DNA of 24,419 nucleotides from contig JAMWCX010000001.1 of NCBI GenBank assembly GCA_023818895.1, positions 708,258 through 732,676 on the forward strand, written 5' to 3'. The notes beneath the pieces are model-generated. The model was not told where the DNA came from, did no database searches, and saw only the letters and a list, made by a program, of their open reading frames with translations. This document shows positions 1 through 13,200 of this stretch, piece after piece. How positions within the stretch are numbered: position 1 is the stretch's first letter; every line of letters starts with the position of its first letter. The translations under genes and the position numbers were made by a program. Source of the stretch: Candidatus Omnitrophota bacterium. Lineage in GTDB: Bacteria > Omnitrophota > Gorgyraeia > 2-01-FULL-45-10.

Positions 1-3000
1 TCCATAGCCGCCTGAACCAAGGCTTATGGGCTCTGTAACCGAGCCATAAGTGGCCAGCGGGTTATTGCCGCCCTGTCCGCCGTACGTGGCGCCGCCCCAG
101 TCATACTTGCCTGGGCCGTATGTGCCGGTAAATCCTTTATATGAGGCGTTAATTGCCGCGCTGTTAGAAATATAAACATCACCACCAACCGCAATAGTTC
201 GTCCTGCGCCATAGGGAGCAACGTTGTATTGATTGGCGCTTCTTGTCACGCTTATGATACTATTGGCGCCAACTAGGATGTTGCCGCCGACAATTAGGTC
301 ACCAAGCTGGTCCTGTTTGAAGGTATATACAGTTGTTGATGCAGCATGGTCCTCGATAATAAAGTCGCCTGTTATCTCCATGTCGCCGCGAACAGCTATG
401 GAACTGCCTTGAGTAATGAGGCCTGTGTAGTTGGCCTTTATGGTAAGCGACGCAATCTTGCCAAATCCAATGGTATTAAGCCAGGTATTATCGATTGTCG
501 AATTGTAGTTGCTATAAGAGGCGTCGAAAATGACGTTATCGAATTCGTCAGGCCTGGTGTGGGTAGGATCGCCGCCAACCCAGTTATTCTCATTCCACCA
601 GTAAAGGTCCGTGTAGCCAGGTTGTGCGTTCCAGTAGAACGTATAGCCGAATATCCAATCGACGTTATTTCCGGAATTAAGGCTTCCTGTGCCAGAGGCA
701 ATGATAGGCGTGGCGTTAATACACTCGGAATCTTTTACATCCAGATACTGGATCGCGCGGCTGCCCTGCGGATCGATGTACCATCTGTCGTCGATAGCCC
801 CATCCTCATCATCCTCGCTTGAACGAAGTTTCAGCCTGCCTTCAGGCGTGGCAGCAAAGCCCTGCAGCTTCATCTCACCTGTGATAACTTGCGTCGAACC
901 CTTTTCGAATGTGAGCGTAACGCCCCCTGTCATCTTCTCAATATCGTGGAACGTAGTCGAACCGTATATGGCCTGGTCAGTACCGTTAAAGTTCACAAGC
1001 CCCGTAGCATTGAGCGCCCCTAATCCTGACTGGTACCAATTACCAGCAAGATTAATCGTGTAACCTCCGTCGTTCAGAGTGCCTCCAAGATATATATCGC
1101 CACTCACAATAACATTATCCGACATAGTAACGGTCGCGCCTTCAGCGATCGTCCAGTCTCCGTCTATGGTGGTAGCCATCTTCCAACGGCCGCCTGAACC
1201 AGTGAATTCAAGGTTGTAGTAGTAGCTACCCGCCTTGAGGCCGTATGCGGTATAGTCACCCGTACCGTAGTATTCTACGGTTGAATTGGTCTGACAGTTG
1301 GGAGTAGTGACTGTTTCGGAACCCAGGAGCCGCAATCTTGCGCCGTCCTGGATTGTGAATGCGCCACCTGCCGATATGGTCTTTCCGGCGAGGTCGAGAC
1401 TGCCTTCAGCTACATCGACAGTTGAAGCGGTAACCATGGTGGTCTGAAGTATCAGTTTTGCGCCATCGCTCTTATAGATCTGAATCGGCGAGGATATAGT
1501 GCCGGCGTTCTGAGTGAATGTCTTATCGCTAGAGCCGCCCAGAACCAGGGTTAGGTTAGCTCCCCCAAAGGCATCAGTAGTCGACATCGAGAAGTTGCCG
1601 TTTATGGTGATAACAATGGCGCTAGAAGGATTGGAAACCACTCCGTCAGTACGAATAAAATCGCCGTTTACAGTAACGTCCGTAGTAAATGCAACTGTTC
1701 CATAGTCGCTCTTATTTATAATTATCGAGCCAATCGTGCCTCCGGAGTATGTTAAAATGGAGTTCTGGGTCGAACCGTTAAATATAACAGTTTTCCCGCT
1801 AAGATCGAAGGTGCCATTTTGGGTCAGGTTACCGTTAAGGCTAAGGGTATCTCCGGCATAGGTGATAGTGGCGCCGGTGTTATTGGTAAAATTTACAGAA
1901 CATCCGCCGCTGATAGCCGTCAGTATCCATCCTGAGCCGTTATGTGTAATGGTGCCGTTGTTGGTAAGGGCCGCGCCGTTCCAATCCCAGTTAGTGTAAT
2001 TATTTTTGATCGTCCATGTTCCCGAATTGACTGTAATTGTGCCGTTGTTGATAATAGGATTGCCGCAGATATTAGTAAGAGGATTATCTCCGAGATTTAT
2101 TGAGGTTCCTGCAGTTATGATGACAGAACTTGAGTCGTAGAGCTTGTTAATGATAACGGTTCCGCCGAGTTCTCCTTGAGCCGTGATTGTTGAACCTCTG
2201 ATCCCTTCAATCGTTATTGTTTTCCCGCTAAGATCGAAGGTGCCATTTTGGGTCAGGTTACCGTTAAGGCTAAGGGTATCTCCGGCATAGGTGATAGTGG
2301 CGCCGGTGTTATTGGTAAAATTTACAGAACATCCGCCGCTGATAGCCGTCAGTATCCATCCTGAGCCGTTATGTGTAATGGTGCCGTTGTTGGTAAGGGC
2401 CGCGCCGTTCCAATCCCAGTTAGTGTAATTATTTTTGATCGTCCATGTTCCCGAATTGACTGTAATTGTGCCGTTGTTGATAATAGGATTGCCGCAGATA
2501 TTAGTAAGAGGATTATCTCCGAGATTTATTGAGGTTCCTGCAGTTATGATGACAGAACTTGAGTCGTAGAGCTTGTTAATGATAACGGTTCCGCCTAAGA
2601 CACCATTGGCAGTAATGGTAGAGCTTCTTATTGGGGCATTGCTTCTACAGTCAAAAGTGACTTTATTTGAGGGACTATAAGTACCTCCTGAAAAAGTTAG
2701 GTTTACCTCAACAGTATACCCCGCTACAGGAGCTATAAACGTCCCGCCTGATTGAGTAAAGCTTCCGTTGATATCCAATGTGCCGATCTTGCCGTCAAAG
2801 GTTCCTCCTGCCTGGGTGTAATTACCTGTGCCTACTGTTAGGGTCCTGGCAGTTGAGTCATCGCCAAGGTATATAGTTCCGGTGTAGTTGGCATTGATGT
2901 TCATCCCCGAGATAGAAGTAGAGATATCTATGTTGCAGTTTTCGTTGGAGACATTTGGATTGTATGCTGCCACATTGCTTGAACCGGGAACCACCCCGCC

Positions 3001-6000
3001 GTACCAGTTGGAAGCCACGCTCCAGAGGTTGGAAGCAGCATCACCGATCCAGGTATAGCTGACAGGGGTAACAAAGAGCCATCTTGAGTTATTGCCGGAA
3101 TTGACGCAATTCGCGGTGCGTACATCAATGAGTGTGGCGTTGGTGTTGACTGAATCCTTCACATCAAGGTAGGACAATGTCGTTGTCCCTTGCGGATTGA
3201 TATACCACTTGGAGCCGTCAGATGTGCTGCGCAGGCTAAGAAGATTCCCGGAAACTCCCTGCAGGGTCAGGGTGCCGGTGATGGTCTGGGTTGAGAGCGC
3301 CTCAAATCTCAGGGTATCGCTAGCAGTTACTGTCTTGGTCAGGTTATTGAAGGTGGTGGAGCCTTTTATCGACTGATTGCCTCCGTTCAAGATAACTGTT
3401 TGTGTACCGCCGCCTGATGAGAATACTCCGTAATTGGTCCAGTCGCCGCTTAAGGTGACATTGCCGCCCGGAGCAAATGCCGCCTGGCTGGGTATGTGCA
3501 AACTGGCTATCGGATATGTTTCATTGCCGAGTATAAGAGCACCGCCCGCGACGGAATAGAGTATCTCAGCGGCGGACTGGGAACCTTTGGCGTCCGAAAG
3601 ATTAGCATTATCGATCGAGGTCAGGCCGCTTGAGGCCTCGTGCTTGACTGTGACCGTAGCGCCCGCGTAGATATTCAGGTTCTCGATATTGGAGGTCGTG
3701 GAGTCCGTGACTGTTATCGCGCTCCCCCTGTAAGCGGTGGCACTATTCAGGTAGACGAGGATCGCTATCTCGCTTCCTTCAGGCATAGAGATTCCGGAGA
3801 AGATGTAGAAGCCGTCTGAAGCAGTAGAGGCGGTTCCCGCGGCCGTTCCCATGACCACGAGGGAGACGATATCAGTTCCGTTTGCTATGGCGCTACCGCC
3901 GATAGCCTGGTAGGCATAGCCTGAGATGGTGATGCCGACTGAAGGCGGCGCATAGTTCTCATAGGCAAGGTGCGGATATGTGACGCCGGAGAAGCTATCC
4001 CAGGTATCGGTAAAGTCCCAGGGGTCAGGTTCGCCGGTATAAACAGCGCTTGTGGGGTCAAAAAACCAGCTTTCGTTGCCGCCTGGAAGCATGTCACTTA
4101 TGTAATAGCTGTTAGACACATATACAGGCCCGCCGTTACTGCCTTTGTAATGCTGCTCTATCCGCCCTATCAGCAGATTGCCGGTCGTCGTACCATTTGC
4201 CATGCCGGTCGCGTAGGAATTATGGATATATATATAATCGTTGGGGGCATTGGTGGTCATGCAAAGGCCTATCAGGCCGCCCGCGTCACTGGAGCCGACC
4301 ACATCACCTGTGGCAAAGCAATTTACCACGTCAACATGCGCAAGAGATAAGGCGCCGTCGGCTAATGCGAAGCCTATAAGGCCGCCCGCCGCATACGATG
4401 AGCTGCTTACCGAGCCTGTAGCATAGCAATCATTAAAATATATGGACGCCCCGCCGCCGCCCTCTGAACGCCCATAATCACAAGCGCTTCCCACCAGCCC
4501 GCCGACATTTTCACCTGTACCAACGACGCTGGCAGTGGAATAACACTGCGAGATGGTGATCGCACCCGAACCGCCCTGCTCCATGCCCCCTATAAGGCCG
4601 CCTACATTACTGGAGCCGCTTACACTGCCGCCATTGACATAGCAATTGGATATATTCACCTGGTATGAGTATCCTATGGCGATCTCAACTTTCCCTATTA
4701 GGGCGCCGACGTAGGAGCCTCCGGTAACTATGGGATTGACGAGCCCTACATTGGAGATAGTGACCGAATCATCGATTGGTGATACAACGCAGAATAGCCC
4801 AAAGCAGTCAGAATACTCGCCTCCATTGACCCTGAGATTGGATATGGTGTGATTTTGGCCGTTAAATGTGCCGGCAAAAGGCGATCCGGTGGTAGCGCCT
4901 ACCGGCGCCCAGTTATCCCCTATTCCCGCATAACCTGAAGTGGATGAGGAAAGATCCGCCTCGAGGTAATAATCTCCGTATAAATCGTAACGCATGTTAT
5001 TAAGGTCATACCAACTCGATATATAGTAAGTTTCGTTCTTAGCCCAGCCGGTATTTCCGCCAAAATCGCACTTTGGCTTGGCGTATATGGTATTTTCGCC
5101 TATATTGTGGGAATCCTGGATACCCACCCATTCGAGGGAATAACTACTTGAGTCCATATAGACATACCAGGCTGATCCCTCAATGCTTGATTTTAGCATT
5201 ATGGTATTGGCAAGGCCGATGGCGCCATGTATTTCGGTAATACCAAGGAAGGTATAGCTCTTCCCCGACTCGAAATATATGGTTTTGCCCGGAACTGTGC
5301 AGATAAAGTTATAAAAGGTGATGTTTCCGTAAAGATTTAGAGGGATTTCACCGGAAATGGTTACGCTTGCGCCTTCCAGCGTAAGCTGCTGACAACTTCT
5401 ATTGTACTCGATTGAGCCAAATTGGCCCTCATCCGGAGGCCCGCGGATCACTACAGTTGAACCGATTCCGAGTGATTCGCGAATATCAATAATTCCGTTT
5501 AACCGCTTCACATGGATATTCTGGGCTTCCACCCTCACTGGAGTGGTTAAAGCGCCGAACCTGTGGGCGGTCATTGTCAGATTCTGAGCCTGGATGATAG
5601 CTGAGTCGCGTGTTACAATGTCACCTCCTGTGATAAGAACCACTATTGGTGCTTCGATAGTAACCCCTATATCTATTACCTCTCTTGAGACAAGCGCAAT
5701 CACGTCAACTGCTTTAATACGAGCAGCGGGTTCAATAGTAATTTTGGCAGGTGCGAATTCCTGCGTCCTGTTGAGAAAAACATTTACATCCGGTGTGGCA
5801 GGGGCTTCGGACACCGCTCGGATAGGCTCTCCAGGCGCGACATCCTCGACGATTATCTCGCCGGCTTCAACGTCCCCTCCTATTGAGACATCGCCGTCAG
5901 CAACGATTTTGATCACACCATTTTTATTCTCCACGCGGCTGCCCTTAACCATTCCCTGCAAATTGATGCTATGTCTGAAAATTTCGTTTATGCTTGAGGC

Positions 6001-6783
6001 TGCGAGAATAACCGTACCGCCTTCGGCAAAAAGCGTTCCTGTATTTTTGACCTGGTCAAGAACCGGTCTTCCCTCATAATCGGTGACCTGTTTGGCAACC
6101 GGTTCGGATAACACCACCGAAATAAGGCCTTTTCCGTCAAATTCCAGTCTCACTCCGTTTCCTCCCGCAAGAGCAATAGTGCCAGCTCTCGCGGTTATAA
6201 CACCTTTATTCTCAACTGCTCCGGCTATGAGAACGCCGAAGCCACCATCTTGGAGTGTGATATTTCCCTCGTTCAAGAGCAAGAGATCCAGCTCCTTCTG
6301 TGTGATACGCTGGAAAAGGTGTTGACCTGCCAGAAAGTTCTGATTGGTAATATCCCTAGTCGAAAGTATTATTCCGCTTGCGGTTATGCTCGCACTCGAC
6401 GCGACATATATGCCTGACTCATTGACCAGAATAAGGATACCGTTGGACTGAAGAATACCTTGTATCTGCGTAGGATAGGGCGAGTTTACCCTATTCAATA
6501 TCTCGGATGTCGAGCTCGGAAGATTAACAATTACCTTCTCATGGGCTGCAATATCAAAAGAGCCATAATTAACTATTGTCTTATCGGATGCGTTGATGGT
6601 AAGTGTGTTTTCAGCCTGCTGGAATTCGGCAGTCCCTGAAACGACCTCGTAGTCTCTGGGTAGCCCATGAACGATATTTGCATAAAAGATATTTAAAATT
6701 AAAAGGCTAAATACGCATACTCCTGCCAGAATGCGCTTCTCGCATCGAGTACTGAGCTTTTTCGAATTCAGAATATTTCCCAT
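1..6783 (-). CDS. Giant TPS-domain exoprotein (TpsA / filamentous-haemagglutinin-like fibre), 3'-partial: 2,261 codons in window, no stop before base 1
   Basis: Absent from the supplied ORF track because it has no in-window stop. Reverse-complement translation from ATG 6783-6781 gives MGNILNSKKLSTRCEKRILAGVCVFSLLILNIFYANIVHGLPRDYEVVSGTAEFQQAENTLTINASDKTIVNYGSFDIAAHEKVIVNLPSSTSEILNRVNSPYPTQIQGILQSNGILILVNESGIYVASSASITASGIILSTRDI... I read it without a stop down to ...YKGFTGTYGPGKYDWGGATYGGQGGNNPLATYGSVTEPISLGSGGYG at base 1. The track lists no minus-strand ORF fragment in this frame, as expected if the frame never closes. An SD-like GGAAAAGGG lies 8 nt upstream of the ATG. Confidence 0.88.
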   Translation of the reverse strand, partial: MGNILNSKKLSTRCEKRILAGVCVFSLLILNIFYANIVHGLPRDYEVVSGTAEFQQAENTLTINASDKTIVNYGSFDIAAHEKVIVNLPSSTSEILNRVNSPYPTQIQGILQSNGILILVNESGIYVASSASITASGIILSTRDITNQNFLAGQHLFQRITQKELDLLLLNEGNITLQDGGFGVLIAGAVENKGVITARAGTIALAGGNGVRLEFDGKGLISVVLSEPVAKQVTDYEGRPVLDQVKNTGTLFAEGGTVILAASSINEIFRHSINLQGMVKGSRVENKNGVIKIVADGDVSIGGDVEAGEIIVEDVAPGEPIRAVSEAPATPDVNVFLNRTQEFAPAKITIEPAARIKAVDVIALVSREVIDIGVTIEAPIVVLITGGDIVTRDSAIIQAQNLTMTAHRFGALTTPVRVEAQNIHVKRLNGIIDIRESLGIGSTVVIRGPPDEGQFGSIEYNRSCQQLTLEGASVTISGEIPLNLYGNITFYNFICTVPGKTIYFESGKSYTFLGITEIHGAIGLANTIMLKSSIEGSAWYVYMDSSSYSLEWVGIQDSHNIGENTIYAKPKCDFGGNTGWAKNETYYISSWYDLNNMRYDLYGDYYLEADLSSSTSGYAGIGDNWAPVGATTGSPFAGTFNGQNHTISNLRVNGGEYSDCFGLFCVVSPIDDSVTISNVGLVNPIVTGGSYVGALIGKVEIAIGYSYQVNISNCYVNGGSVSGSSNVGGLIGGMEQGGSGAITISQCYSTASVVGTGENVGGLVGSACDYGRSEGGGGASIYFNDCYATGSVSSSSYAAGGLIGFALADGALSLAHVDVVNCFATGDVVGSSDAGGLIGLCMTTNAPNDYIYIHNSYATGMANGTTTGNLLIGRIEQHYKGSNGGPVYVSNSYYISDMLPGGNESWFFDPTSAVYTGEPDPWDFTDTWDSFSGVTYPHLAYENYAPPSVGITISGYAYQAIGGSAIANGTDIVSLVVMGTAAGTASTASDGFYIFSGISMPEGSEIAILVYLNSATAYRGSAITVTDSTTSNIENLNIYAGATVTVKHEASSGLTSIDNANLSDAKGSQSAAEILYSVAGGALILGNETYPIASLHIPSQAAFAPGGNVTLSGDWTNYGVFSSGGGTQTVILNGGNQSIKGSTTFNNLTKTVTASDTLRFEALSTQTITGTLTLQGVSGNLLSLRSTSDGSKWYINPQGTTTLSYLDVKDSVNTNATLIDVRTANCVNSGNNSRWLFVTPVSYTWIGDAASNLWSVASNWYGGVVPGSSNVAAYNPNVSNENCNIDISTSISGMNINANYTGTIYLGDDSTARTLTVGTGNYTQAGGTFDGKIGTLDINGSFTQSGGTFIAPVAGYTVEVNLTFSGGTYSPSNKVTFDCRSNAPIRSSTITANGVLGGTVIINKLYDSSSVIITAGTSINLGDNPLTNICGNPIINNGTITVNSGTWTIKNNYTNWDWNGAALTNNGTITHNGSGWILTAISGGCSVNFTNNTGATITYAGDTLSLNGNLTQNGTFDLSGKTITIEGIRGSTITAQGELGGTVIINKLYDSSSVIITAGTSINLGDNPLTNICGNPIINNGTITVNSGTWTIKNNYTNWDWNGAALTNNGTITHNGSGWILTAISGGCSVNFTNNTGATITYAGDTLSLNGNLTQNGTFDLSGKTVIFNGSTQNSILTYSGGTIGSIIINKSDYGTVAFTTDVTVNGDFIRTDGVVSNPSSAIVITINGNFSMSTTDAFGGANLTLVLGGSSDKTFTQNAGTISSPIQIYKSDGAKLILQTTMVTASTVDVAEGSLDLAGKTISAGGAFTIQDGARLRLLGSETVTTPNCQTNSTVEYYGTGDYTAYGLKAGSYYYNLEFTGSGGRWKMATTIDGDWTIAEGATVTMSDNVIVSGDIYLGGTLNDGGYTINLAGNWYQSGLGALNATGLVNFNGTDQAIYGSTTFHDIEKMTGGVTLTFEKGSTQVITGEMKLQGFAATPEGRLKLRSSEDDEDGAIDDRWYIDPQGSRAIQYLDVKDSECINATPIIASGTGSLNSGNNVDWIFGYTFYWNAQPGYTDLYWWNENNWVGGDPTHTRPDEFDNVIFDASYSNYNSTIDNTWLNTIGFGKIASLTIKANYTGLITQGSSIAVRGDMEITGDFIIEDHAASTTVYTFKQDQLGDLIVGGNILVGANSIISVTRSANQYNVAPYGAGRTIAVGGDVYISNSAAINASYKGFTGTYGPGKYDWGGATYGGQGGNNPLATYGSVTEPISLGSGGYG
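649..960 (-). other. Junction domain copy B3
   Basis: STTFHDIEKMTGGVTLTFEKGSTQVITGEMKLQGFAATPEGRLKLRSSEDDEDGAIDDRWYIDPQGSRAIQYLDVKDSECINATPIIASGTGSLNSGNNVDWIF. It is followed by YTFYWNAQPGYTDLYWWNENNWVGGDPTHTRPDEFDNVIFD. Confidence 0.55.
1790..2595 (-). repeat. Perfect in-frame tandem duplication inside gene B: 1790..2166 = 2219..2595 (377 bp, period 429 bp = 143 codons)
   Basis: Base-by-base comparison of the two stretches found no mismatch. They are separated by a unique 52-bp linker (2167..2218). Each copy encodes GGTVIINKLYDSSSVIITAGTSINLGDNPLTNICGNPIINNGTITVNSGTWTIKNNYTNWDWNGAALTNNGTITHNGSGWILTAISGGCSVNFTNNTGATITYAGDTLSLNGNLTQNGTFDLSGKT. Confidence 0.95.
3073..3360 (-). other. Junction domain copy B2
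   Basis: STTFNNLTKTVTASDTLRFEALSTQTITGTLTLQGVSGNLLSLRSTSDGSKWYINPQGTTTLSYLDVKDSVNTNATLIDVRTANCVNSGNNSRWLF. It is followed by YTWIGDAASNLWSVASNWYGGVVPGSSNVAAY. Confidence 0.55.
3705..3951 (-). other. Small beta-sandwich (CarboxypepD_reg/Ig-like) following the GLUG module of gene B
   Basis: APPSVGITISGYAYQAIGGSAIANGTDIVSLVVMGTAAGTASTASDGFYIFSGISMPEGSEIAILVYLNSATAYRGSAITV. The pattern h-x-h-SG-x...G...h-x-h...T-x-x-x-G-x-F-x-F is typical of carboxypeptidase-regulatory-like sandwiches. Called by eye only. Confidence 0.4.
3952..5028 (-). other. GLUG-motif beta-helix module of gene B, closed by YPHLAYENY
   Basis: YYISSWYDLNNMRYDLYGDYYLEADLSSSTSGYAGIGDNWAPVGATTGSPFAGTFNGQNHTISNLRVNGGEYSDCFGLFCVV... 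This is followed by successive turns ending in YVGALIG, VGGLIG, VGGLVG, AGGLIG and AGGLIG, and finishes with PWDFTDTWDSFSGVTYPHLAYENY. It matches my memory of the Glug family (PF07581). Confidence 0.7.
5041..5322 (-). other. Junction domain copy B1 (~95 aa, unnamed recurrent domain)
   Basis: ITFYNFICTVPGKTIYFESGKSYTFLGITEIHGAIGLANTIMLKSSIEGSAWYVYMDSSSYSLEWVGIQDSHNIGENTIYAKPKCDFGGNTGWA. It fits the consensus F-x-N-h-x-C-x-x-PGKT-h-x-F...L-x-h-x-G...h-x-L-[RK]-S...W-x-h...V-x-V-x-DS-x-N...GNN-x-x-W shared by six copies. Confidence 0.55.
5884..6660 (-). other. TPS (two-partner secretion) / haemagglutination-activity N-terminal domain of gene B (aa ~42-300)
   Basis: LPRDYEVVSGTAEFQQAENTLTINASDKTIVNYGSFDIAAHEKVIVNLPSSTSEILNRVNSPYPTQIQGILQSNGILILVNESGIYVASSASITASGIILST...NEGNITLQDGGFGVLIAGAVENKGVITARAGTIALAGGNGVRLEF...NTGTLFAEGGTVILAA. 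This follows the Haemagg_act (PF05860) pattern: xxILNRVxGxxPSxIxGxLxxNGxvxLiNPNGI. The NPNGI box is replaced here by NESGI. Confidence 0.8.
6664..6783 (-). other. Predicted Sec signal peptide of gene B (aa 1-40)
   Basis: Basic n-region MGNILNSKKLSTRCEKR, hydrophobic core ILAGVCVFSLLILNIFYANIV, and a small-residue site VHG|LP directly before the TPS domain. The cleavage site is judged by eye only. Confidence 0.6.
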
Positions 6784-6809
6784 TGTATGAACCCTTTTCC
6801 GCAACACCC

Positions 6810-6852
6810 AAAACAAAAAACCCGCAAAGCTCATGTTGCCGAACTTGCGGGT
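6810..6852 (-). terminator. Rho-independent terminator-like hairpin plus U-tract, 26 nt upstream of the gene B ATG
   Basis: The minus-strand RNA reads ACCCGCAA-GUUCGGCAACAUGAGCU-UUGCGGGU-UUUUUGUUUU. It has a perfect 8-bp GC-rich stem (arms 6845..6852 and 6820..6827), a rather long 17-nt loop, and then U5GU4 (6819..6810). Confidence 0.6.
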
Positions 6853-6857
6853 GTATT

Positions 6858-6987
6858 GCCCACCGACGAGGTGGACAAACGAAAAATCTCTTATTTCGGC
6901 AACTGGCTATCCTGCTTTCGCGAGGACCCTTTAGCTTTGTGACCCCGGATTTCTCCGGGTGTACTATTGTCGCTTAAGAGAAAGCGA
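6858..6987 (-). promoter_or_regulatory. GC-rich structured 5' leader element of gene B (candidate riboswitch/attenuator aptamer; possibly GEMM-I-like, unverified)
   Basis: Four hairpins on the minus-strand RNA. (1) UCGCUU-UCUCUU-AAGCGA at 6970..6987. (2) CCCGGA-GAAA-UCCGGG at 6944..6959. (3) GUCCU(C)GC-GAAA-GCAGGAU at 6909..6927. (4) GUCCACC-UCGUC-GGUGGGC at 6858..6876. GCGAC (6969..6973) can pair with GUUGC (6899..6903), enclosing the two GAAA hairpins and the linker GGGUCACAAAGCUAAAGG. Confidence 0.4.
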
Positions 6988-7025: not shown

Positions 7026-7053
7026 ATTATATCATATAATGATAGAATTTCAA
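7026..7053 (-). promoter_or_regulatory. Sigma-70-type promoter with extended -10, reading towards gene B
   Basis: The minus strand reads TTGAAA (7053..7048), a 16-nt spacer TTCTATCATTATATGA, then TATAAT (7031..7026). The spacer ends in TGA, giving TGnTATAAT. The predicted TSS is near 7019, implying a ~236-nt leader. The site lies in the AT-rich part of the spacer. Confidence 0.5.
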
Positions 7054-7163: not shown

Positions 7164-7199
7164 GGAAACCGTCTCTAACCACTGCTGGAGACGGGTTCC
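7164..7199 (-). terminator. Hairpin 83 nt downstream of the gene A stop (possible weak terminator or 3'-end stabiliser)
   Basis: The minus-strand RNA reads GGAACCCGUCUC-CAGCAGUGGUUA-GAGACGGUUUCC, giving 11 of 12 pairs. No U-tract follows (AAUCGCCUCAGG), so this is not a canonical intrinsic terminator. Confidence 0.3.
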
Positions 7200-7281: not shown

Positions 7282-10200
7282 TTACTTCACCTCGCCTTTT
7301 ACTTCGATCTTCTGGCCGTCGGTTACCATCTTGGCATTTTCGTAATCGACACCCTTTTCGCTGTAATCTGCCACAGCAACTTTGCCTTCCATGACTATGA
7401 CTACAGTCCTGTACTTGCCTTTTGCATATCTCTTCTTGTAGAGATCTTCCCTATCTACGAAGTCAGTGGCGAATGCGATGGAACTCGTCCAGGATAGATT
7501 GGAGAATATGTCAAGCCATGGATTAACAATGTATATTGGATCTACCCACTCTTCCTCATCCTTATCGTCTTGCGGCTTTGTGAACCAGCTGGTATTATTT
7601 GAAGGGTTGATCCACTTCTTGCCTGACTTTACCCAGCCGCCAAGGGAGTTTTCCGGATTGATGTCAACACCGCTTGTGTTGTTGGAATCCTGTACATCCA
7701 CGTTGGCTATGAGGCCGTTCCAGGTTGTGACATTGGGATCGATCTTCCACTGCGTACCGGGCTGGGTGCTGCGCAGGACGAGTTTATTTTCCTGGGTGCC
7801 TTTGAGAGTCAGGACAGAGTCTATGGTCTGGAGTTTATTCGCCTCGAAGTATATGGTCTTCTGTCCGACGGTGTTTGTCATGTCGCAGGTGAACTTCCAG
7901 AAGGTCGTCTCGCCTTCTATAGTCGCGTTATTTATGGTATCGAAGATGACTTCGTTATTATTGTGATCGAAAGCGCCGCCATTGACCATCTTCCAGCCTT
8001 TAGATATAAATATCTTATTATCTGCGGCGTTGACATTGAGAGAGGCCTTGTTATTGATGGTGATACTGCCGTTTATATCTAAGACTTTTGAGTTGAGCTC
8101 GAAGGTCTCACCCTTAGTGGAATCGCCTTTTAATGTTACGTCGCCATTGAAGGTAACGGTGCCTGTTGCGGTAATAACCTTGCCTATATTAAGCTTGTCA
8201 GATGTCAAGGCGATCTCACCTGCGCCGCCTGCCGTAAGATCGATGGTGTCGGCTATGGCCACATTGATGGGATTTGTGGCCTGTCCTATGTGGCCGGCAG
8301 ATGTCATCGTGAGGTTATCGGCTGTTATTGTAGAGGATATGCCATTTGCGTCCAGTATGCTGCCGTTTCTGGCGTCGAGGGTAACGTTATCACCTGATAT
8401 TATCGAGTCAACCTCGATATTGCCTATCATGGAGGTGAGATTAATCCTATCGGTTAGGTTCTCAATGGTGCCTGTGGTGAGGTCTCCTGTCCTTGCACCC
8501 AGTCCTGTGGTGATATTTATGGCCTCGCCTGCTATAGTATTCTTTATAATACCGCTGTTTAAGAGCCACTCATCGAGCTCAAGGGCATTTCCTCTAAGGT
8601 CGAGTGATATCTTCTCGCCTCCGAAGATCTCGTCGTCTATAGTCAGGGCCTGCAGGCGTATCGTTCCGGTAATGTTGAAGAATGGATGGAACTGTGCTGG
8701 ATCCGCTATATGATCGATGAATACAGTGTCGTAGCGCGAGGGCACTATCCATGGATCCCAGTTGCGAGGATCATACCACTCACCAGATACCTCACCTGTC
8801 CAGGTGATATCGTCGAACGACCAACCGTAGTTATTGCCGAGGTCCGTCGAGTGGTGGGCAATGATGTCGCGGATGCCGGCCTGGTCAACATTATTGTTCA
8901 TATCCTGCACAGCCACGTACTCGACCTCGCAGACCGTATACACACGGATCTCCGCCTGATCAGCGCTAAGCGTGGAGTGGACATTTATTGGGTCGCCTTT
9001 CCGGCCTTTCAGGACTATGGTCGTTATGTCCTGGAGCTGGCCGTCTGTATGGTCGAATTCAAGCGTCTTATTGGTAATGCCTCGGCCGGCGGTGTCGCAT
9101 TTTAAGACATTGAATTCGGAGCTTCCAAGTATAGTGGAGTTGGAATTATCATCTCCTATGAACTCGACAGTAGAGCCTTCCCCGTTGAACTCACCGTAGC
9201 ATGTCCAGTCTCCGTCAATAGTCCAGTACGACGGTCCGGCGTTCACCGTGGCATTAGACCCTATCGTGACAGAGCCGCCGATATCGATATCGCTTGAGGC
9301 GTAATCAATGTCAAGAAGCCCGTTTATGATAAGGTCTCCGGTCGAGGTGATGTCGATGGAGCCTGAGCTGGAAGAGGTGTTGCCATTAAGTGTAATAAGA
9401 CTTCCGTTTATTTTTAGAGATGTGCCGGCATCTATGCCGCTTAATGATACATCGGACCCCAATACTGTCGTACTAGCGGCAGATGAGATAGCGCTATCCA
9501 CTTTCACAGGCCTTTGGTAACCGTCAAGCCATACGTAACTTATAAGGCTCGTTACAGTTCCGGTGATGTTAAGTCCATATCCTTCGATAATGACGGCGTC
9601 GTATGCCATTACATCGGAAAGAGTTACAAGTCCTGTTGCGCCTCCCAGTGCCTGGACCGATACAAAACTGCCAGTCGATTCAAGCCTGCCGGTTACAGTA
9701 ACATCATCCGAGGTGCCGATGTAGACGCGCAAGGCGCCAGTCACGGAATCTGCGATTTCGACCTTGCCGGAGGCTTCTATATCTAGGGTATCAGCTGAGC
9801 TTATATATTCGCCGACAGTTACACCGGTATCGGTATAAATATAGACGTAGCCGTCAGAGGAGACATACGAATCAATGCCTACTGCGCCGGCGCAGTATAT
9901 ATCGATATCGCCCGCCGCATCCAGATATCCGCCTACGTCGAGAGAGCCGACGCAGTAAGAGCTGTTTCCTATAATAATGCCGCCGGCGTTTACGTCGATA
10001 TTGCCGGTTACCATAACATCACCGTCGCAATATATCTCCACAAGCGTGCCGGCCCTAAGAGATCCGTACGCTGTCAGATAATCACCGGCTGGCACTCCGG
10101 TTGTATCGATGCAAATATAGCCGAGCGCTGTGGCGGCGTTTGTGTGGTTGCCGAATTCGACAGGTCCCCATGTATAGAGCTCTATATAGGTTCCGGCATC

Positions 10201-13200
10201 GAGTTTATATCCGCTTGCGTCAAAGGAGAGAGGATAGATACCGCTATCATCATCGCCGACTTCGATATACGTACCGGCGGTGATATCGCCATTTACCGTC
10301 ACCGAGCCGGTGCCGTAGAGGCCTACATAGGTGGAGGCCCCCAGCGCGCCGTTTACGGCAGTAGTAGTCGCGGAAGTAAGCGATATGCCGTAATCGTTTG
10401 TTATGCCGACGGTATCTATGGTATCGGCAATCACGACAACATCACCTAACGAGTTATAAAGCGTCCCGTAATTGGCGAAGGCATCCACAACCTCGATGTA
10501 GGCGTTATCGTGGGCAACATCGAGCTCGGCATAGGATGATATCGTCATGCCGCTATTAACATACACGCTCGCCTGAGGAGCATACTTACCTGCCTCTACG
10601 TAATAGAGATAGCCGCCTTCTACTTCGATATCGGCAAATATGTTCGTTATATAATTGAGTTTTGAAGTGTCAACAGCTTGGTTAAGCTCTATGGCCTGCA
10701 GGTCCCAGTTGTTGATAACTTCCTTAAGTGGATTTTCGCTGCGCACAGCCACAGTATTGGCATAAAGGTTTAAACCCATAGATGTGGTCTCTAACGCCTT
10801 CGTAATGGTGGCGGCCTCAGGTGGAATATCGCCTATTGTGGATGCCGAATACACACCGACAACATCGCCGTTTTTAACATCTGATACCATAATCGAGAAA
10901 TGGCCGTTAGGATCGGTGTAGCCCTGGAATAGTGATGGCGTGCCGTTTATGGCTATCACAACAAGGTGTCCTTCACCAAGCGCTGTTGAAGCGTCGATGG
11001 CGGTATAGAAGGTACCGGATATTTCGGTGCCGGTTAATCCGAATACCCAGTTGATATTGTTACCGGAGTCGGTGCCGTTTGTGACAAGAATGTATGCGGG
11101 CGTCTCTCCGAGAGGCCTGACCTGGTCTTTGACATCGGCTCCGTCTATTGAGAATGAACCGGAGCCATACCAGTCGCGCTGTTCGCCATCTACGTCTGAG
11201 CGGATGGTATATCCGGAGCCGGTGAAGTCTATCATTCCGTCGTTATGGACGCCGCCTTCGCCTATGGTGATGGAGCCGCCGGAATTACGCCATGTGCCGC
11301 TTGCGATATTTATGTAATAAGCGTAAAGGGCGCTTCCAGCCTGGTCGAGTGAGCTCGAACCATCGATGTTAAGTTCGCTATCGACAAACATCTCATCGGC
11401 CATGGTGTAAGATGAGCCGTTTTGCAGATAGAGTCCGATGAAATGGTTGTAGTTGGACTGAATAGAGCCGGAGCCTTCGAGATAGGCGTCATCGTTGATC
11501 TGGCCCAGGTTGAAGGTGCCGCCGTCGAGGGTGATGACATTGCCGTTTGTAGTAAGCGTGCCGGCCGAGAAGTCGAGGTCATAGTCGACATAAAGCGGAT
11601 CCTGTAGTGTATAGGCGCCTTCTATCGTAAGGTAGCCGAATGGATCGCTATTGGTAAATATCTCGCTTCCGCCTGTAAGATATACAGTGCCGTCGCCGTG
11701 TGTGAATGTGCCGCCGTTATTGGTCCAGTCGCCTCCGATATGGATCTGGCTTGAACTGTCGAGGACCGTTAGGGCGCCGCTGGACTCTATAAAGAGGCCG
11801 CCATCCACATATAGCCTTCCGCCTGAGATCGTGTATTCGCCCGCTGGATATGGCGGTATATGCGCTATGGTAAGAGAGCCGCAGTAGGCCTCTGCGTCCT
11901 GCTGGGGAAGCACTCCCATCTTCACGCATACATCATCTGTGGAATCGAACTTTTTCAAAAGGTCGCTGTAATTTACTCCTGTATCGCCGCCGTAGTAATT
12001 GTATCCGTACAGGCCGTCCTCGATGATACAGCTTACGCTTGCCAGAGACAAGTTGGAGTTGAAGCTAAGGTCAAGGCTGCCGCCGTCTATCCACACCTGG
12101 ACGCCGTCGGATAGTGTCAATGTGGCGGGATTATCCATACCGGCAGCGCCTATCAGGAGCCTGCCGGTTAACCTTATGTGCTCGCATACCGTCACGTTGG
12201 TCCCCTGACCCTGTATCTCGATGTTAGAGAAGCTCTTGGATTCGTCATATCCTCCGGAGTATATGGCCTGGGCACTGCCGCTATCAAATATAACCCATGA
12301 ATCGCCGGCTATGAAGGCGCCGTCATTCGTCCAGTCGCCGCTTGCGTATATGTCGCCCGCAGGCGCGTAGGTCATACCTGAAGGAATAAGCAGGCCTATG
12401 CCGTCAGTGAAGGAAATGGTATAGCTGGGGCCTGTTCCTGAGACGGAGTAATGCACGTCCGAGTCGGGTGTGTAAGCTGCGGCCAAGTCAACGTTGGAGA
12501 AGTAGCCTCCGATATTGGCGTCGGCATCTCCTATGGAGAATTGGTTGTTCTCTAGAGTGATATTGCTTATAGCGTTGGAATTTTGGGCAATGCCTACCAG
12601 ATTTGCCTTATAACTTGAGCTGTCAGCAAATACCAGTAGCTTATCTGAAGCGTTCAACACCACGTTTTCAAAGCTAAAAGCCCCGCCTGAAGTGGTATTC
12701 ACTACCACAAACCCGCCGCCGTTCAAGGCAAATGCTATCGGTATTCCTGCGCCCTGTTCATTAAACGTTCCGCTTACCGTCACCGCACCCTCTGGCACAT
12801 ACCCTTCCCAGTGCAGGTGAGGATAGGTGGAGGCAAAGGCGTCCCAGATAGGAGTGGTATGGAAGTCCCATCCGGTGTAGTTGGATTCACCGTGCATCTT
12901 GACTTCATTTAAACCATGTACATTGGAAGGATCGACTGTATTCCCCACCCCCCCTTCCTGCGGATCAAGATGAGGATTATGAGTAATGTTCCAATAACTA
13001 TGCCCGGAAAAAGATCCAAGGATATTAGGATACCCTGGGAAATAAACCCCATTATATCCTACTAATCCTCCGGTAGCGCCAGAAGAACCACTTACTGTTC
13101 CAGTAGCATAACAGTTCGTAATAGAAGCGTTATTATAATGCCTGCCGACTAATCCTCCTGCTATATATGTGCTCGTAACATCTCCGGTGGCGTAACAATT

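What the first reader, a model, noticed from the sequence alone, without database searches (positions are those of the whole stretch)
5884..6783. Gene missed by the ORF track: a TPS-domain exoprotein directly downstream of another giant protein, with no TpsB transporter between them
The minus-strand frame from ATG 6783 encodes a signal peptide and a clear TPS (haemagglutination-activity) domain. That domain is the targeting module TpsA cargo proteins use for export through an Omp85-family TpsB pore, so it implies a diderm host and a partner transporter. In classical loci tpsB sits immediately next to tpsA. Here the upstream neighbour is a 17-kb fibre gene and the spacer has no ORF. The second conserved box is NESGI instead of NPNGI, which suggests a divergent TPS subfamily. 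It remains open whether gene A also begins with a TPS domain, which would mean two cargoes sharing one pore.
Basis: partly seen in the sequence, partly recalled or inferred. Interest (0 to 1): 0.7.

Follow-up and report, generated by a model that had tools for sequence, protein, structure and literature searches.

The report
Riboswitch-controlled TpsA exoprotein gene in Omnitrophota
The gene is a real two-partner-secretion (TpsA) exoprotein from an Omnitrophota-like bacterium, and the supposedly empty spacer in front of it holds its own promoter, a cyclic-dinucleotide (c-di-GMP-I type) riboswitch and a terminator, a pairing that recurs in about 27 related genomes and appears not to have been described.

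Summary
From ATG 6783 the minus-strand frame stays open for 2261 codons to the window edge. It encodes a signal-peptide-like N-terminus and a TPS domain (PF05860, 87.8 bits against a cutoff of 33.5; closest solved structures are EtpA, HMW1 and HxuA). No TpsB is encoded in the window.

The interpretation needs correcting in three places.
- The ORF track missed the gene only because the gene runs off the window.
- "NESGI" is ordinary drift inside an Omnitrophota TPS clade, and the N and G of the box are invariant.
- The spacer is not empty. It holds a near-consensus promoter, a c-di-GMP-I aptamer (Rfam 57.5 bits, cutoff 35) and an intrinsic terminator.

Across 46 related Omnitrophota loci with enough upstream sequence, 27 have the same aptamer just upstream of the TPS gene. 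In this clade tpsB is displaced, most often downstream and convergent. In 28 more distant loci tpsB sits directly upstream (22 of 28) and none has an aptamer.

The window's aptamer has A where ordinary c-di-GMP-I aptamers have the ligand-contacting G20. That is the signature of cGAMP-sensing or bispecific GEMM-Ib aptamers.

I infer an OFF switch, in which ligand favours the terminator. This is a new variant of known kinds and moderately interesting.

The parts
7282..24417 (-). Gene A, partial (at least 5711 aa; stop codon at 7282-7284; N-terminus beyond the window). A giant G/S/T/N-rich surface protein with GLUG motif arrays, two Laminin_G_3 domains, DUF2341 and a Peptidase_M26_N-like module.
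   Evidence: Open frame; Pfam and NCBIfam hits; modules homologous to gene B and to segments inside TPS-led ORFs of L013, L016, L020, L038 and L046.
7164..7199 (-). Stable hairpin 83 nt after gene A's stop codon, with no U-run. Possibly a 3' end or stabilising structure of the gene A transcript.
   Evidence: Folds at -17.9 kcal/mol; the terminator scan did not call it. Its function was not tested.
7026..7053 (-). Sigma-70-like promoter of gene B: TTGAAA, 16 nt with an extended TG, then TATAAT (11 of 12 matches).
   Evidence: Promoter scan. The string TTGCATATTGAAAT is shared with the leader of L002. Transcription from it is inferred.
6888..6980 (-). c-di-GMP-I (GEMM-I) class aptamer including P1 (CUCUUAAGCG 6980-6971 with CGAAAUAAGAG 6898-6888). 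The Rfam core is 6975-6895. The base equivalent to Vc2 G20 is A at 6965.
   Evidence: Rfam RF01051, 57.5 bits against gathering score 35, E 5e-9. Clade model R1, 85.5 bits. Covariation: 97.1% of cells paired, 12 of 19 pairs changed on both sides, 0 of 500 shuffles reach this.
6858..6876 (-). Small hairpin (GUCCACCUCGUCGGUGGGC) between the aptamer and the terminator.
   Evidence: Present in the MFE and centroid folds. Its role is unknown.
6810..6852 (-). Intrinsic terminator: a 13-bp stem (6852-6820, -18.5 kcal/mol) followed by UUUUUUGUUUU. Its 5' arm and loop contain UUCGGCAAC (6843-6835), complementary to the aptamer 3' strand AGUUGCCGAA (6904-6895).
   Evidence: Folds. Antiterminator duplex -15.3 to -15.7 kcal/mol, reached by 0 of 200 shuffled arms. 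Matching changes on both strands in L012 and L090.
6661..6800 (-). Ribosome-binding site GGAAAAGGG (6800-6792), ATG at 6783, and a signal-peptide-like N-terminus (aa 1-41, ending VHG|LP).
   Evidence: Read from the sequence. Homologue P0001 starts the same way, MGKTLRSKRF.
5905..6624 (-). TPS (two-partner secretion) domain, aa 54-293.
   Evidence: PF05860, 87.8 bits; TIGR01901; EtpA, HMW1 and HxuA in PDB; 56 homologues, nearly all Omnitrophota.
1..5904 (-). Passenger region of gene B (aa 294-2261 and beyond; the gene runs off the window). G/T/S/I/N-rich repeats, a weak GLUG-like module, and modules paralogous to gene A.
   Evidence: No stop codon. BLASTP of A against B, 27-37% identity over 120-630 aa. 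Weak Glug hit, E 0.007, below the cutoff.
1790..2595 (-). Perfect 429-bp tandem duplication (1.9 copies, 100% identity) inside gene B. It is in frame and duplicates about 143 aa.
   Evidence: Tandem Repeats Finder; visible in the translation.

Best explanation
Gene B encodes a large TpsA-type exoprotein (more than 2261 aa) of an Omnitrophota-like diderm bacterium. Sec exports it via the N-terminal signal peptide, and the TPS domain then docks on an Omp85-family TpsB pore encoded outside this window. In relatives tpsB lies either just past the 3' end of tpsA in convergent orientation, or upstream and separated by a TPR gene.

Gene B is its own transcription unit. A near-consensus promoter at 7053-7026 drives a roughly 235-nt leader that contains a GEMM-I class cyclic-dinucleotide aptamer followed by an intrinsic terminator.

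The proposed mechanism is as follows. Without ligand, the aptamer's 3' strand (AGUUGCCGAA) pairs with the terminator's 5' arm and loop (UUCGGCAAC). This antiterminator lets RNA polymerase read into gene B. With ligand bound, that strand is locked into the aptamer (the 3' strand of P3 and the adjoining ligand-contact and P1 bases), the terminator forms and transcription stops. That makes it an OFF switch.

The ligand is c-di-GMP, or possibly 3'3'-cGAMP or both, because the G20 contact position is A.

Shown: the ORF, the TPS domain, the aptamer with covariation, the terminator, the complementarity, and the recurrence of aptamer plus TPS gene in 27 related loci. Inferred: promoter use, ligand identity, the direction of the switch, the location of tpsB, and the adhesion or attack role of the protein.
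For: The ORF and TPS domain are established.

The aptamer scores 57.5 bits in Rfam against a cutoff of 35. Helices P2 and P3 show compensatory changes. On the 31-hit alignment, 97.1% of cells are paired against 83% in shuffles and at most 40% when partners are slid, and 12 of 19 pairs change on both sides.

The association is strong. Model R1 finds 29 strong aptamers in 1.1 Mb, all on the TPS strand, and all but one (the second L020 unit) lie 84-800 nt upstream of a tabulated TPS match. In the clade with at least 40% identity, 27 of 46 loci with at least 600 nt of upstream sequence have one, plus one weak hit. In the clade with at most 39% identity, 0 of 28 have one.

A strong terminator follows 25 of 27 aptamers. 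In the window, 0 of 200 shuffled arms reach the antiterminator duplex energy (z = -3.1). The G-to-A change in the aptamer strand (GUUGCC to GUUACC) is matched by C-to-U in the terminator arm in L012 and L090.

TpsB with POTRA_2 and ShlB domains is present near TPS genes in relatives. L020 has two aptamer-TPS units in tandem.

The rule for G20 versus A20 is taken from PMC6140456.
Against: No TpsB can be shown for this genome. The source contig was not found in the genome or metagenome collections.

The general test of the antiterminator is only modest. The terminator 5' arm pairs with the aptamer in 15 of 26 truncated transcripts, and the mean fraction of arm nucleotides paired is 0.42 against 0.30 for shuffled arms. 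With the narrow aptamer slice, only 8 of 27 loci reach 5% or better against shuffles. The OFF direction therefore rests mainly on the window's own subtype and on the architecture.

Eighteen of the 46 clade loci have no aptamer. In L002 the aptamer is about 690 nt from the TPS start codon, with small ORFs and a second promoter-like site between them.

An OFF response to c-di-GMP would be opposite to the usual pattern of high c-di-GMP favouring adhesins. Ligand binding and ligand identity are untested.
Confidence: 0.75

Rival explanations
1. The riboswitch is an ON switch. Ligand binding stabilises the aptamer so as to prevent the terminator, so that high c-di-GMP induces the exoprotein, as is usual for adhesins.
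For: It fits the usual biological pattern of high c-di-GMP promoting attachment (general knowledge). The general thermodynamic test of the antiterminator model is weak. In the unconstrained MFE, the aptamer helices and the terminator coexist, so energetics alone do not decide the direction.
Against: The terminator is a self-contained hairpin 36 nt downstream of the aptamer and shares no strand with P1. It would therefore form by default unless something sequesters its 5' arm. The only strong complement to that arm is the aptamer's 3' strand, which the ligand-bound fold occupies. Matching changes in L012 and L090 support that pairing. No element was found that would pair with the antiterminator strand to reverse the logic.
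Confidence: 0.2
2. The aptamer senses 3'3'-cGAMP (GEMM-Ib type) rather than c-di-GMP, so gene B responds to a second-messenger pathway different from that of the G20-type paralogous loci.
For: A occupies the G20-equivalent position (6965), while A47 and C92 equivalents are kept. Eight of 28 clade aptamers share the A, six of them with the same AAUAG context. PMC6140456 states that G20 is replaced by A in cGAMP riboswitches.
Against: The same paper shows that A20 aptamers (Vc2 G20A, Cbe 1-2) bind c-di-GMP as well as or better than cGAMP (53 against 120 nM; 30 against 463 nM). A20 is therefore not sufficient for selectivity. No cGAMP synthase is known or testable here. West-Roberts et al. note PilZ and GGDEF genes near Omnitrophota giant genes, which points to c-di-GMP.
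Confidence: 0.2
3. Gene B is not exported by a TpsB. The TPS-like domain is a relic, and the protein leaves the cell by the T2SS-like apparatus proposed for Omnitrophota giant proteins, or stays anchored in the envelope.
For: No tpsB is found within 17.6 kb upstream or 6.8 kb downstream of the start codon. West-Roberts et al. associate giant genes with T2SS-like loci. In 36 of 54 clade loci no tpsB lies within the fetched flanks.
Against: The TPS domain is well conserved, with 60 invariant columns among 13 clade members including the N and G of the box. It scores far above the Pfam cutoff. tpsB was found in 18 clade loci, often abutting the 3' end of tpsA. Many fetched flanks are cut short by contig ends or filled by the long tpsA gene itself.
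Confidence: 0.07
4. The aptamer belongs to gene A, as a 3'-UTR or read-through element, or is a stand-alone small RNA, and does not regulate gene B.
For: It lies on the same strand 307 nt after gene A's stop codon, and no U-run terminator separates it from gene A. Abundant stand-alone GEMM-I RNAs have been reported in Bdellovibrio (from memory, not checked here).
Against: An 11-of-12 promoter sits between gene A and the aptamer. Across 27 loci the aptamer keeps its position relative to the TPS gene start whatever lies upstream: an HTH gene, tpsB, a giant gene or small ORFs.
Confidence: 0.05

Closest known systems
EtpA (ETEC), HMW1 (Haemophilus influenzae) and HxuA: the HMW1-like branch of TpsA exoproteins
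   Same: A signal peptide is followed by a TPS domain of about 250 aa and a long repetitive passenger. These are the best sequence matches among solved structures (E 2e-25, 2.8e-22 and 8.5e-15).
   Different: Those genes sit in compact operons with their tpsB (etpBAC, hmw1ABC; established knowledge). Here tpsB is not adjacent, the host is Omnitrophota, the passenger is built from GLUG/M26_N-like and other Omnitrophota modules, and the gene has its own riboswitch-controlled leader.
Classical FhaB/FhaC, ShlA/ShlB and CdiA/CdiB loci
   Same: The secretion logic is the same (TPS domain, POTRA domains, 16-strand barrel). The distant relatives in this study keep the classical tpsB-tpsA order (22 of 28 loci).
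   Different: No FhaB, ShlA, HpmA or CdiA structure was matched at E up to 0.01. The box reads NESGI rather than NPNGI. The gene order is uncoupled.
c-di-GMP-I (GEMM-I) riboswitches, Rfam RF01051 (for example Vc2 of Vibrio cholerae and Cd1 of Clostridioides difficile)
   Same: The aptamer fold is the same (P1, P2 with a GAAA loop, P3), the score is above the gathering threshold, and the A47 and C92 equivalents are conserved. The terminator-type expression platform resembles that of the OFF switch Cd1 upstream of the flagellar operon (from memory).
   Different: A replaces G20. The controlled gene is a tpsA, a link for which the literature search found no paper. The host phylum is new. Some clade members carry extra hairpins inserted into the aptamer (L006, L009, L090).
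GEMM-Ib 3'3'-cGAMP riboswitches of Geobacter (Gs1761) and bispecific Cbe 1-2
   Same: A sits at the G20-equivalent position and the rest of the pocket is kept (rule from PMC6140456).
   Different: Selectivity is untested. The regulated genes differ (extracellular electron transfer genes in Geobacter; PMC6456294 abstract). No cGAMP synthase is known for this lineage.
Omnitrophota giant surface proteins (West-Roberts et al. 2023 preprint; Seymour et al. 2023)
   Same: The phylum is the same. The proteins are very long and poorly annotated, with adhesion-type domains such as Laminin_G_3, and are proposed to act in host or prey attachment.
   Different: Those papers propose T2SS-like export and do not mention TPS domains, TpsB or riboswitches. 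The proteins here are smaller than the genes over 20 kb that they emphasise (2,000 to at least 5,700 aa in the relatives and in genes A and B).

Membership tests
TpsA (two-partner secretion exoprotein) | TPS domain (PF05860 / TIGR01901) at the N-terminus, scoring above the curated cutoffs | tested here: met
   PF05860: 87.8 bits against 33.5. TIGR01901: 61.2 bits against 29.1. The domain spans aa 54-293.
TpsA (two-partner secretion exoprotein) | Sec signal peptide preceding the TPS domain | tested here: met
   5 K/R in aa 1-18, hydrophobic core at aa 18-32, and VHG|LP before the invariant P42. This is a heuristic assessment only; SignalP was not available.
TpsA (two-partner secretion exoprotein) | Conserved asparagine/glycine boxes of the TPS fold (LNRV... 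and N-P-N-G-I) | tested here: met
   LNRV is present. The second box is N-E-S-G-I, with N121 and G124 invariant in 33 sequences, while the P position varies within the clade.
TpsA (two-partner secretion exoprotein) | Cognate TpsB (POTRA domains plus ShlB/Omp85 barrel) encoded in the genome | not testable with these tools
   None is present in the window and the source contig was not found. TpsB is present near the TPS gene in 18 clade loci and 22 distant loci.
TpsA (two-partner secretion exoprotein) | Long beta-helical or repetitive passenger | not tested
   The passenger exceeds 1,960 aa, is G/T/S/I/N-rich and repetitive. No structure was predicted.
c-di-GMP-I riboswitch (RF01051) | Covariance-model score above the gathering threshold | tested here: met
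   57.5 bits against 35, E 5e-9, full model length 1-87.
c-di-GMP-I riboswitch (RF01051) | P2 and P3 helices supported by covariation | tested here: met
   9 of 15 pairs and 12 of 19 pairs have changes on both sides. 97.1% of cells are paired, 0 of 500 shuffles reach this, and slid controls reach at most 40%.
c-di-GMP-I riboswitch (RF01051) | Ligand-contacting nucleotides G20, A47 and C92 | tested here: not met
   The A47 and C92 equivalents are present, but the G20 equivalent is A (window 6965). This is the GEMM-Ib or bispecific signature (PMC6140456).
c-di-GMP-I riboswitch (RF01051) | Expression platform linked to the aptamer | tested here: met
   A terminator (-18.5 kcal/mol plus a U-run) starts 36 nt after the aptamer. 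The same holds in 25 of 27 related leaders.
c-di-GMP-I riboswitch (RF01051) | Binds c-di-GMP and changes gene expression | not testable with these tools
   This needs in-line probing or ITC, plus transcription assays.
GEMM-Ib (3'3'-cGAMP riboswitch) | A at position 20 within a GEMM-I fold | tested here: met
   Eight of 28 clade aptamers have A at this position.
GEMM-Ib (3'3'-cGAMP riboswitch) | Selective response to cGAMP over c-di-GMP, and a cGAMP synthase in the genome | not testable with these tools
   A20 alone gives bispecific binding (PMC6140456). The genome is not available.

The most novel reading that the evidence does not exclude
Omnitrophota use two versions of one riboswitch to control paralogous TpsA surface exoproteins. 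The G20 version reads c-di-GMP, and the A20 version (the window's type) reads 3'3'-cGAMP or both ligands. Each version shuts off its exoprotein gene when its signal rises. Attachment or attack proteins of these ultra-small, host-dependent bacteria would then be deployed under two second-messenger programmes, and cGAMP-riboswitch signalling would extend well beyond Geobacter.
Probability: 0.2. Interest if true: 0.75.

Novelty: new variant of a known kind. Interest (0 to 1): 0.55.

Why it matters
Omnitrophota are uncultivated, very small, probably predatory or epibiotic bacteria. Their huge surface proteins are suspected to mediate host contact, but neither their export route nor their regulation is known. 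Published work points to a T2SS-like system and notes nearby PilZ genes.

This locus and about 27 related ones give two concrete and testable handles. The first is an export route for one class of large exoproteins of 1,500 to at least 3,700 aa, and probably for gene A-like proteins of 5,700 aa or more: a TPS domain with a displaced TpsB. The second is a regulatory input, a GEMM-I riboswitch with a terminator.

For the two-partner secretion field, this is a clade in which tpsA has been uncoupled from tpsB and given its own metabolite-sensing leader. For the riboswitch field, it is a new regulon in a new phylum, with a natural G20/A20 split in front of one gene family. That makes it a useful comparative system for ligand specificity.

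Tried and rejected
- My first translation of gene A was out of frame. I redid it.
- The search for related loci with the 33-sequence alignment failed because no block was conserved enough. A 13-sequence alignment worked.
- A MAFFT alignment of the first five aptamers was not usable for a model. I replaced it with 15 seeds of similar length found by a regex screen.
- An exact-match search for the source contig in metagenome contigs found nothing. The source is also absent from the reference genomes (best 65% identity) and from the protein database (best 70%). The true flanks could therefore not be read, which leaves gene A's N-terminus and the position of tpsB unknown.
- The general thermodynamic tests of the antiterminator were only weakly positive. 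I do not claim the OFF logic as proven for the whole clade.
- Pfam finds nothing beyond TPS in gene B at E up to 0.01. A GLUG hit at E 0.007 falls below the cutoff.
- I considered and rejected NESGI as a marker of a new TPS subfamily.
- I considered and rejected the aptamer as a 3' element of gene A, because of the intervening promoter and the aptamer's conserved position relative to TPS gene starts.
- I did not use structure prediction, fold search or the large representative-protein search. The domain assignments were already unambiguous.
Full report
**Observation**

The minus-strand frame that starts at ATG 6783 is open for all 2261 codons down to window position 1. The mechanical ORF list omits it only because it does not list ORFs that run off the source. 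"Missed by the ORF track" is therefore a tool artefact and not a property of the gene.

- Pfam's TPS model (PF05860) matches aa 54-293 at 87.8 bits against a gathering score of 33.5.
- NCBIfam's filamentous-haemagglutinin N-terminal model TIGR01901 also passes its cutoff.
- The closest solved structures by sequence are EtpA, HMW1 and HxuA. No FhaB, HpmA, ShlA or CdiA structure reaches E 0.01.
- The first 41 residues look like a Sec signal peptide: five K/R, a hydrophobic core at aa 18-32, and VHG before an invariant proline. SignalP was not available.
- Gene A (7282-24417, minus strand) is open to the window edge, so it has at least 5711 aa and its N-terminus is missing. It contains GLUG arrays, two Laminin_G_3 domains, DUF2341 and a Peptidase_M26_N-like module.
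- An HMM built from Pfam-annotated TpsB proteins of relatives finds nothing in the window.

**Taxon and the NESGI box**

Fifty-six homologues of the TPS region were found. The best is 70% identical, and nearly all the named ones are Candidatus Omnitrophota. The 78 loci recovered from reference genomes are likewise mostly Omnitrophota bins. The window's own sequence is in none of the collections.

In a 33-sequence alignment the second box is N-x-x-G-[IV]. N121 and G124 are invariant, while the proline position reads E, P, Q, K or R within the clade. NESGI is therefore drift within a clade of the HMW1/EtpA-like branch and does not mark a new subfamily.

**The spacer is not empty**

The minus strand between gene A's stop codon (7282) and gene B's ATG (6783) carries the following features.

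| Feature | Window coordinates | Evidence |
|---|---|---|
| Stable hairpin after gene A, no U-run | 7199-7164 | |
| Sigma-70-like promoter, 11 of 12 matches with extended TG | 7053-7026 | |
| c-di-GMP-I aptamer (Rfam core) | 6975-6895 | RF01051, 57.5 bits against 35, E 5e-9 |
| Long P1 helix | 6980-6971 with 6898-6888 | |
| Small hairpin | 6876-6858 | |
| Intrinsic terminator: 13-bp stem, -18.5 kcal/mol, then UUUUUUGUUUU | 6852-6810 | |
| Ribosome-binding site | 6800-6792 | sequence |

The promoter string TTGCATATTGAAAT is shared with locus L002.

**The aptamer-tpsA pairing recurs**

Rfam scans of the first related loci found the same aptamer class upstream of the TPS gene in L002, L006, L009 and L011. 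I built a covariance model from 15 clade aptamers. It finds 29 strong matches (46-100 bits) in 1.1 Mb of related loci. All are on the TPS gene's strand. Twenty-eight of them, in 27 distinct loci, lie 84-800 nt upstream of the tabulated TPS match, and the 29th precedes the second TPS domain of L020.

Among loci at least 40% identical to the window's TPS domain and with at least 600 nt of upstream sequence, 27 of 46 have a strong aptamer and one more has a weak hit. Among 28 loci at most 39% identical, none has one.

The fold is well supported. 97.1% of cells are paired, 12 of 19 pairs change on both sides, no shuffle out of 500 reaches these values, and slid controls pair at 40% or less.

**Where tpsB is**

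The two groups differ in gene order.

- **Distant group** (Chlamydiota, Planctomycetota, Campylobacterota and some Omnitrophota): 22 of 28 loci have tpsB directly upstream on the same strand, the classical arrangement.
- **The window's clade:** tpsB was seen in 18 loci. It is convergent and downstream of tpsA in 10 of them. In L016, L027 and L038 it directly abuts the 3' end of tpsA, and in L028 it lies within about 180 nt. In L011 the riboswitch sits between an upstream tpsB and tpsA.
- **Closest relatives** (L006, L009/L012, L090/L091): the order is FecR, tpsB, a TPR-repeat gene, an HTH gene on the other strand, the riboswitch, then tpsA.

The TPS-led ORFs of the clade are long, from 1,561 to more than 3,695 aa. 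A 24-kb window filled by two such genes should therefore not be expected to contain tpsB.

**Does gene A begin with a TPS domain?**

This cannot be decided here, but several points favour it.

- Gene A's GLUG/M26_N and LamG/DUF2341 modules align at 30-38% identity to segments inside TPS-led ORFs of L013, L016, L020, L038 and L046.
- Genes A and B share several modules.
- L006 has two adjacent TPS genes.
- L020 has two complete aptamer-TPS units in tandem, 9 kb apart.

I put the probability at roughly 0.6-0.7.

**Mechanism of the switch**

The terminator is self-contained and starts 36 nt after the aptamer. Its 5' arm and loop contain UUCGGCAAC (6843-6835), a perfect complement of the aptamer's 3' strand AGUUGCCGAA (6904-6895). 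The duplex is worth -15.3 to -15.7 kcal/mol, and none of 200 shuffled arms reaches that.

That strand is occupied in the ligand-bound fold. It forms the 3' side of P3 and the start of the GCCGAA ligand-contact and P1 segment. Ligand should therefore free the terminator arm and stop transcription, which makes this an OFF switch.

Within the window's subtype the pairing is kept. L006 has 13 bp (-18.4 kcal/mol). In L012 and L090, a G-to-A change in the aptamer strand is matched by a C-to-U change in the terminator.

Across the whole clade, 25 of 27 aptamers are followed by a strong terminator. General support for an antiterminator is only modest, however. In truncated-transcript folds the arm pairs with the aptamer in 15 of 26 cases, and the mean fraction of arm nucleotides paired is 0.42 against 0.30 for shuffled arms. 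I therefore give the OFF direction about 0.6 and mark it as inferred.

**Ligand**

The nucleotide immediately 5' of P2 corresponds to Vc2 G20, which reads one guanine of c-di-GMP. In the window it is A (position 6965). Eight of 28 clade aptamers have A there and 20 have G.

According to PMC6140456, G20 is replaced by A in cGAMP-sensing GEMM-Ib riboswitches. The same paper shows that A20 aptamers also bind c-di-GMP well. Vc2 G20A binds c-di-GMP at 53 nM and cGAMP at 120 nM, and Cbe 1-2 binds them at 30 and 463 nM.

The window's aptamer thus fails one defining feature of a canonical c-di-GMP-I pocket and meets the sequence criterion of GEMM-Ib. Its real selectivity is unknown.

**What is known**

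Full-text searches found no paper that links a c-di-GMP riboswitch to two-partner secretion, and none on riboswitches in Omnitrophota beyond incidental mentions. The searched library omits most subscription-journal papers.

The two preprints on Omnitrophota giant proteins and Seymour et al. 2023 do not mention TPS, TpsB, riboswitches or, in this context, c-di-GMP riboswitches. West-Roberts et al. propose T2SS-like export and note PilZ genes downstream of giant genes.

**Verdict**

Its sense of anomaly (no adjacent tpsB, NESGI, an empty spacer) does not hold up, because all three are explained by clade-typical features.

It is a recurrent GEMM-I riboswitch with a terminator that controls tpsA genes uncoupled from tpsB in Omnitrophota, with a G20/A20 split.

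This is a new variant of known kinds. The interest is moderate (0.55). The most novel reading not excluded by the evidence is dual c-di-GMP and cGAMP control, with a probability of about 0.2.

Noticed in passing
window 1790-2595 (inside gene B): A 429-bp unit is repeated 1.9 times at 100% identity. It is in frame and duplicates about 143 aa of the passenger. It is either a very recent duplication or an assembly artefact.
   Followed up: partly
window 23747-24328 (gene A): DNA-level tandem arrays with periods of 96 and 84 bp (83-85% matches) underlie the GLUG-motif repeats at the window edge.
   Followed up: no
window 7164-7199 (minus strand): A stable hairpin (-17.9 kcal/mol) lies 83 nt after gene A's stop codon and has no U-run. 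It may mark the 3' end of gene A's transcript, or read-through from gene A into gene B's leader may occur.
   Followed up: partly
L006:5429-5596, L009:5520-5702, L090 (reverse strand, about 1300-1491): In the window's closest relatives the GEMM-I aptamer carries extra hairpins, inserted between P2 and P3 or into distal P3. This splits the Rfam hit into two partial matches and lowers its score.
   Followed up: partly
L006:3425-4633, L009:3336-4499, L002:18497-19675 (minus), L091 (382-aa ORF): A conserved gene of about 380-400 aa with weak TPR hits always sits next to tpsB in this clade. A FecR-domain gene lies on the other side in L006 and L009. It could be an accessory factor of the secretion system.
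   Followed up: partly
L020:9738-9841 and L020:18783-18887: Two complete aptamer-plus-TPS-gene units lie in tandem on one strand, 9 kb apart, with a 565-aa ORF of unknown function between them.
   Followed up: partly
L009:82-450: A group II intron domain (Rfam RF00029, 51.7 bits) and a reverse-transcriptase ORF fragment lie at the edge of the tpsB-tpsA locus.
   Followed up: no
L011:7562-7648: This A20-type aptamer scores better against the Rfam variant model c-di-GMP-I-GGC (47.5 bits, below its gathering score of 59) than against RF01051, although its position-47 equivalent is A and not G.
   Followed up: no
L002:9323-10000: Here the aptamer and terminator are followed by two small called ORFs (100 and 51 aa) and a second promoter-like site (TTGACA, 17 nt, TACAGT) before the TPS gene. 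In this locus the riboswitch may control the small ORFs rather than, or in addition to, tpsA.
   Followed up: no
L001:8129-11143: A distant TPS protein (35% identity) sits directly after FliI-like (T3SS ATPase) and FliJ-like genes. It has no tpsB within 10 kb and no aptamer.
   Followed up: no
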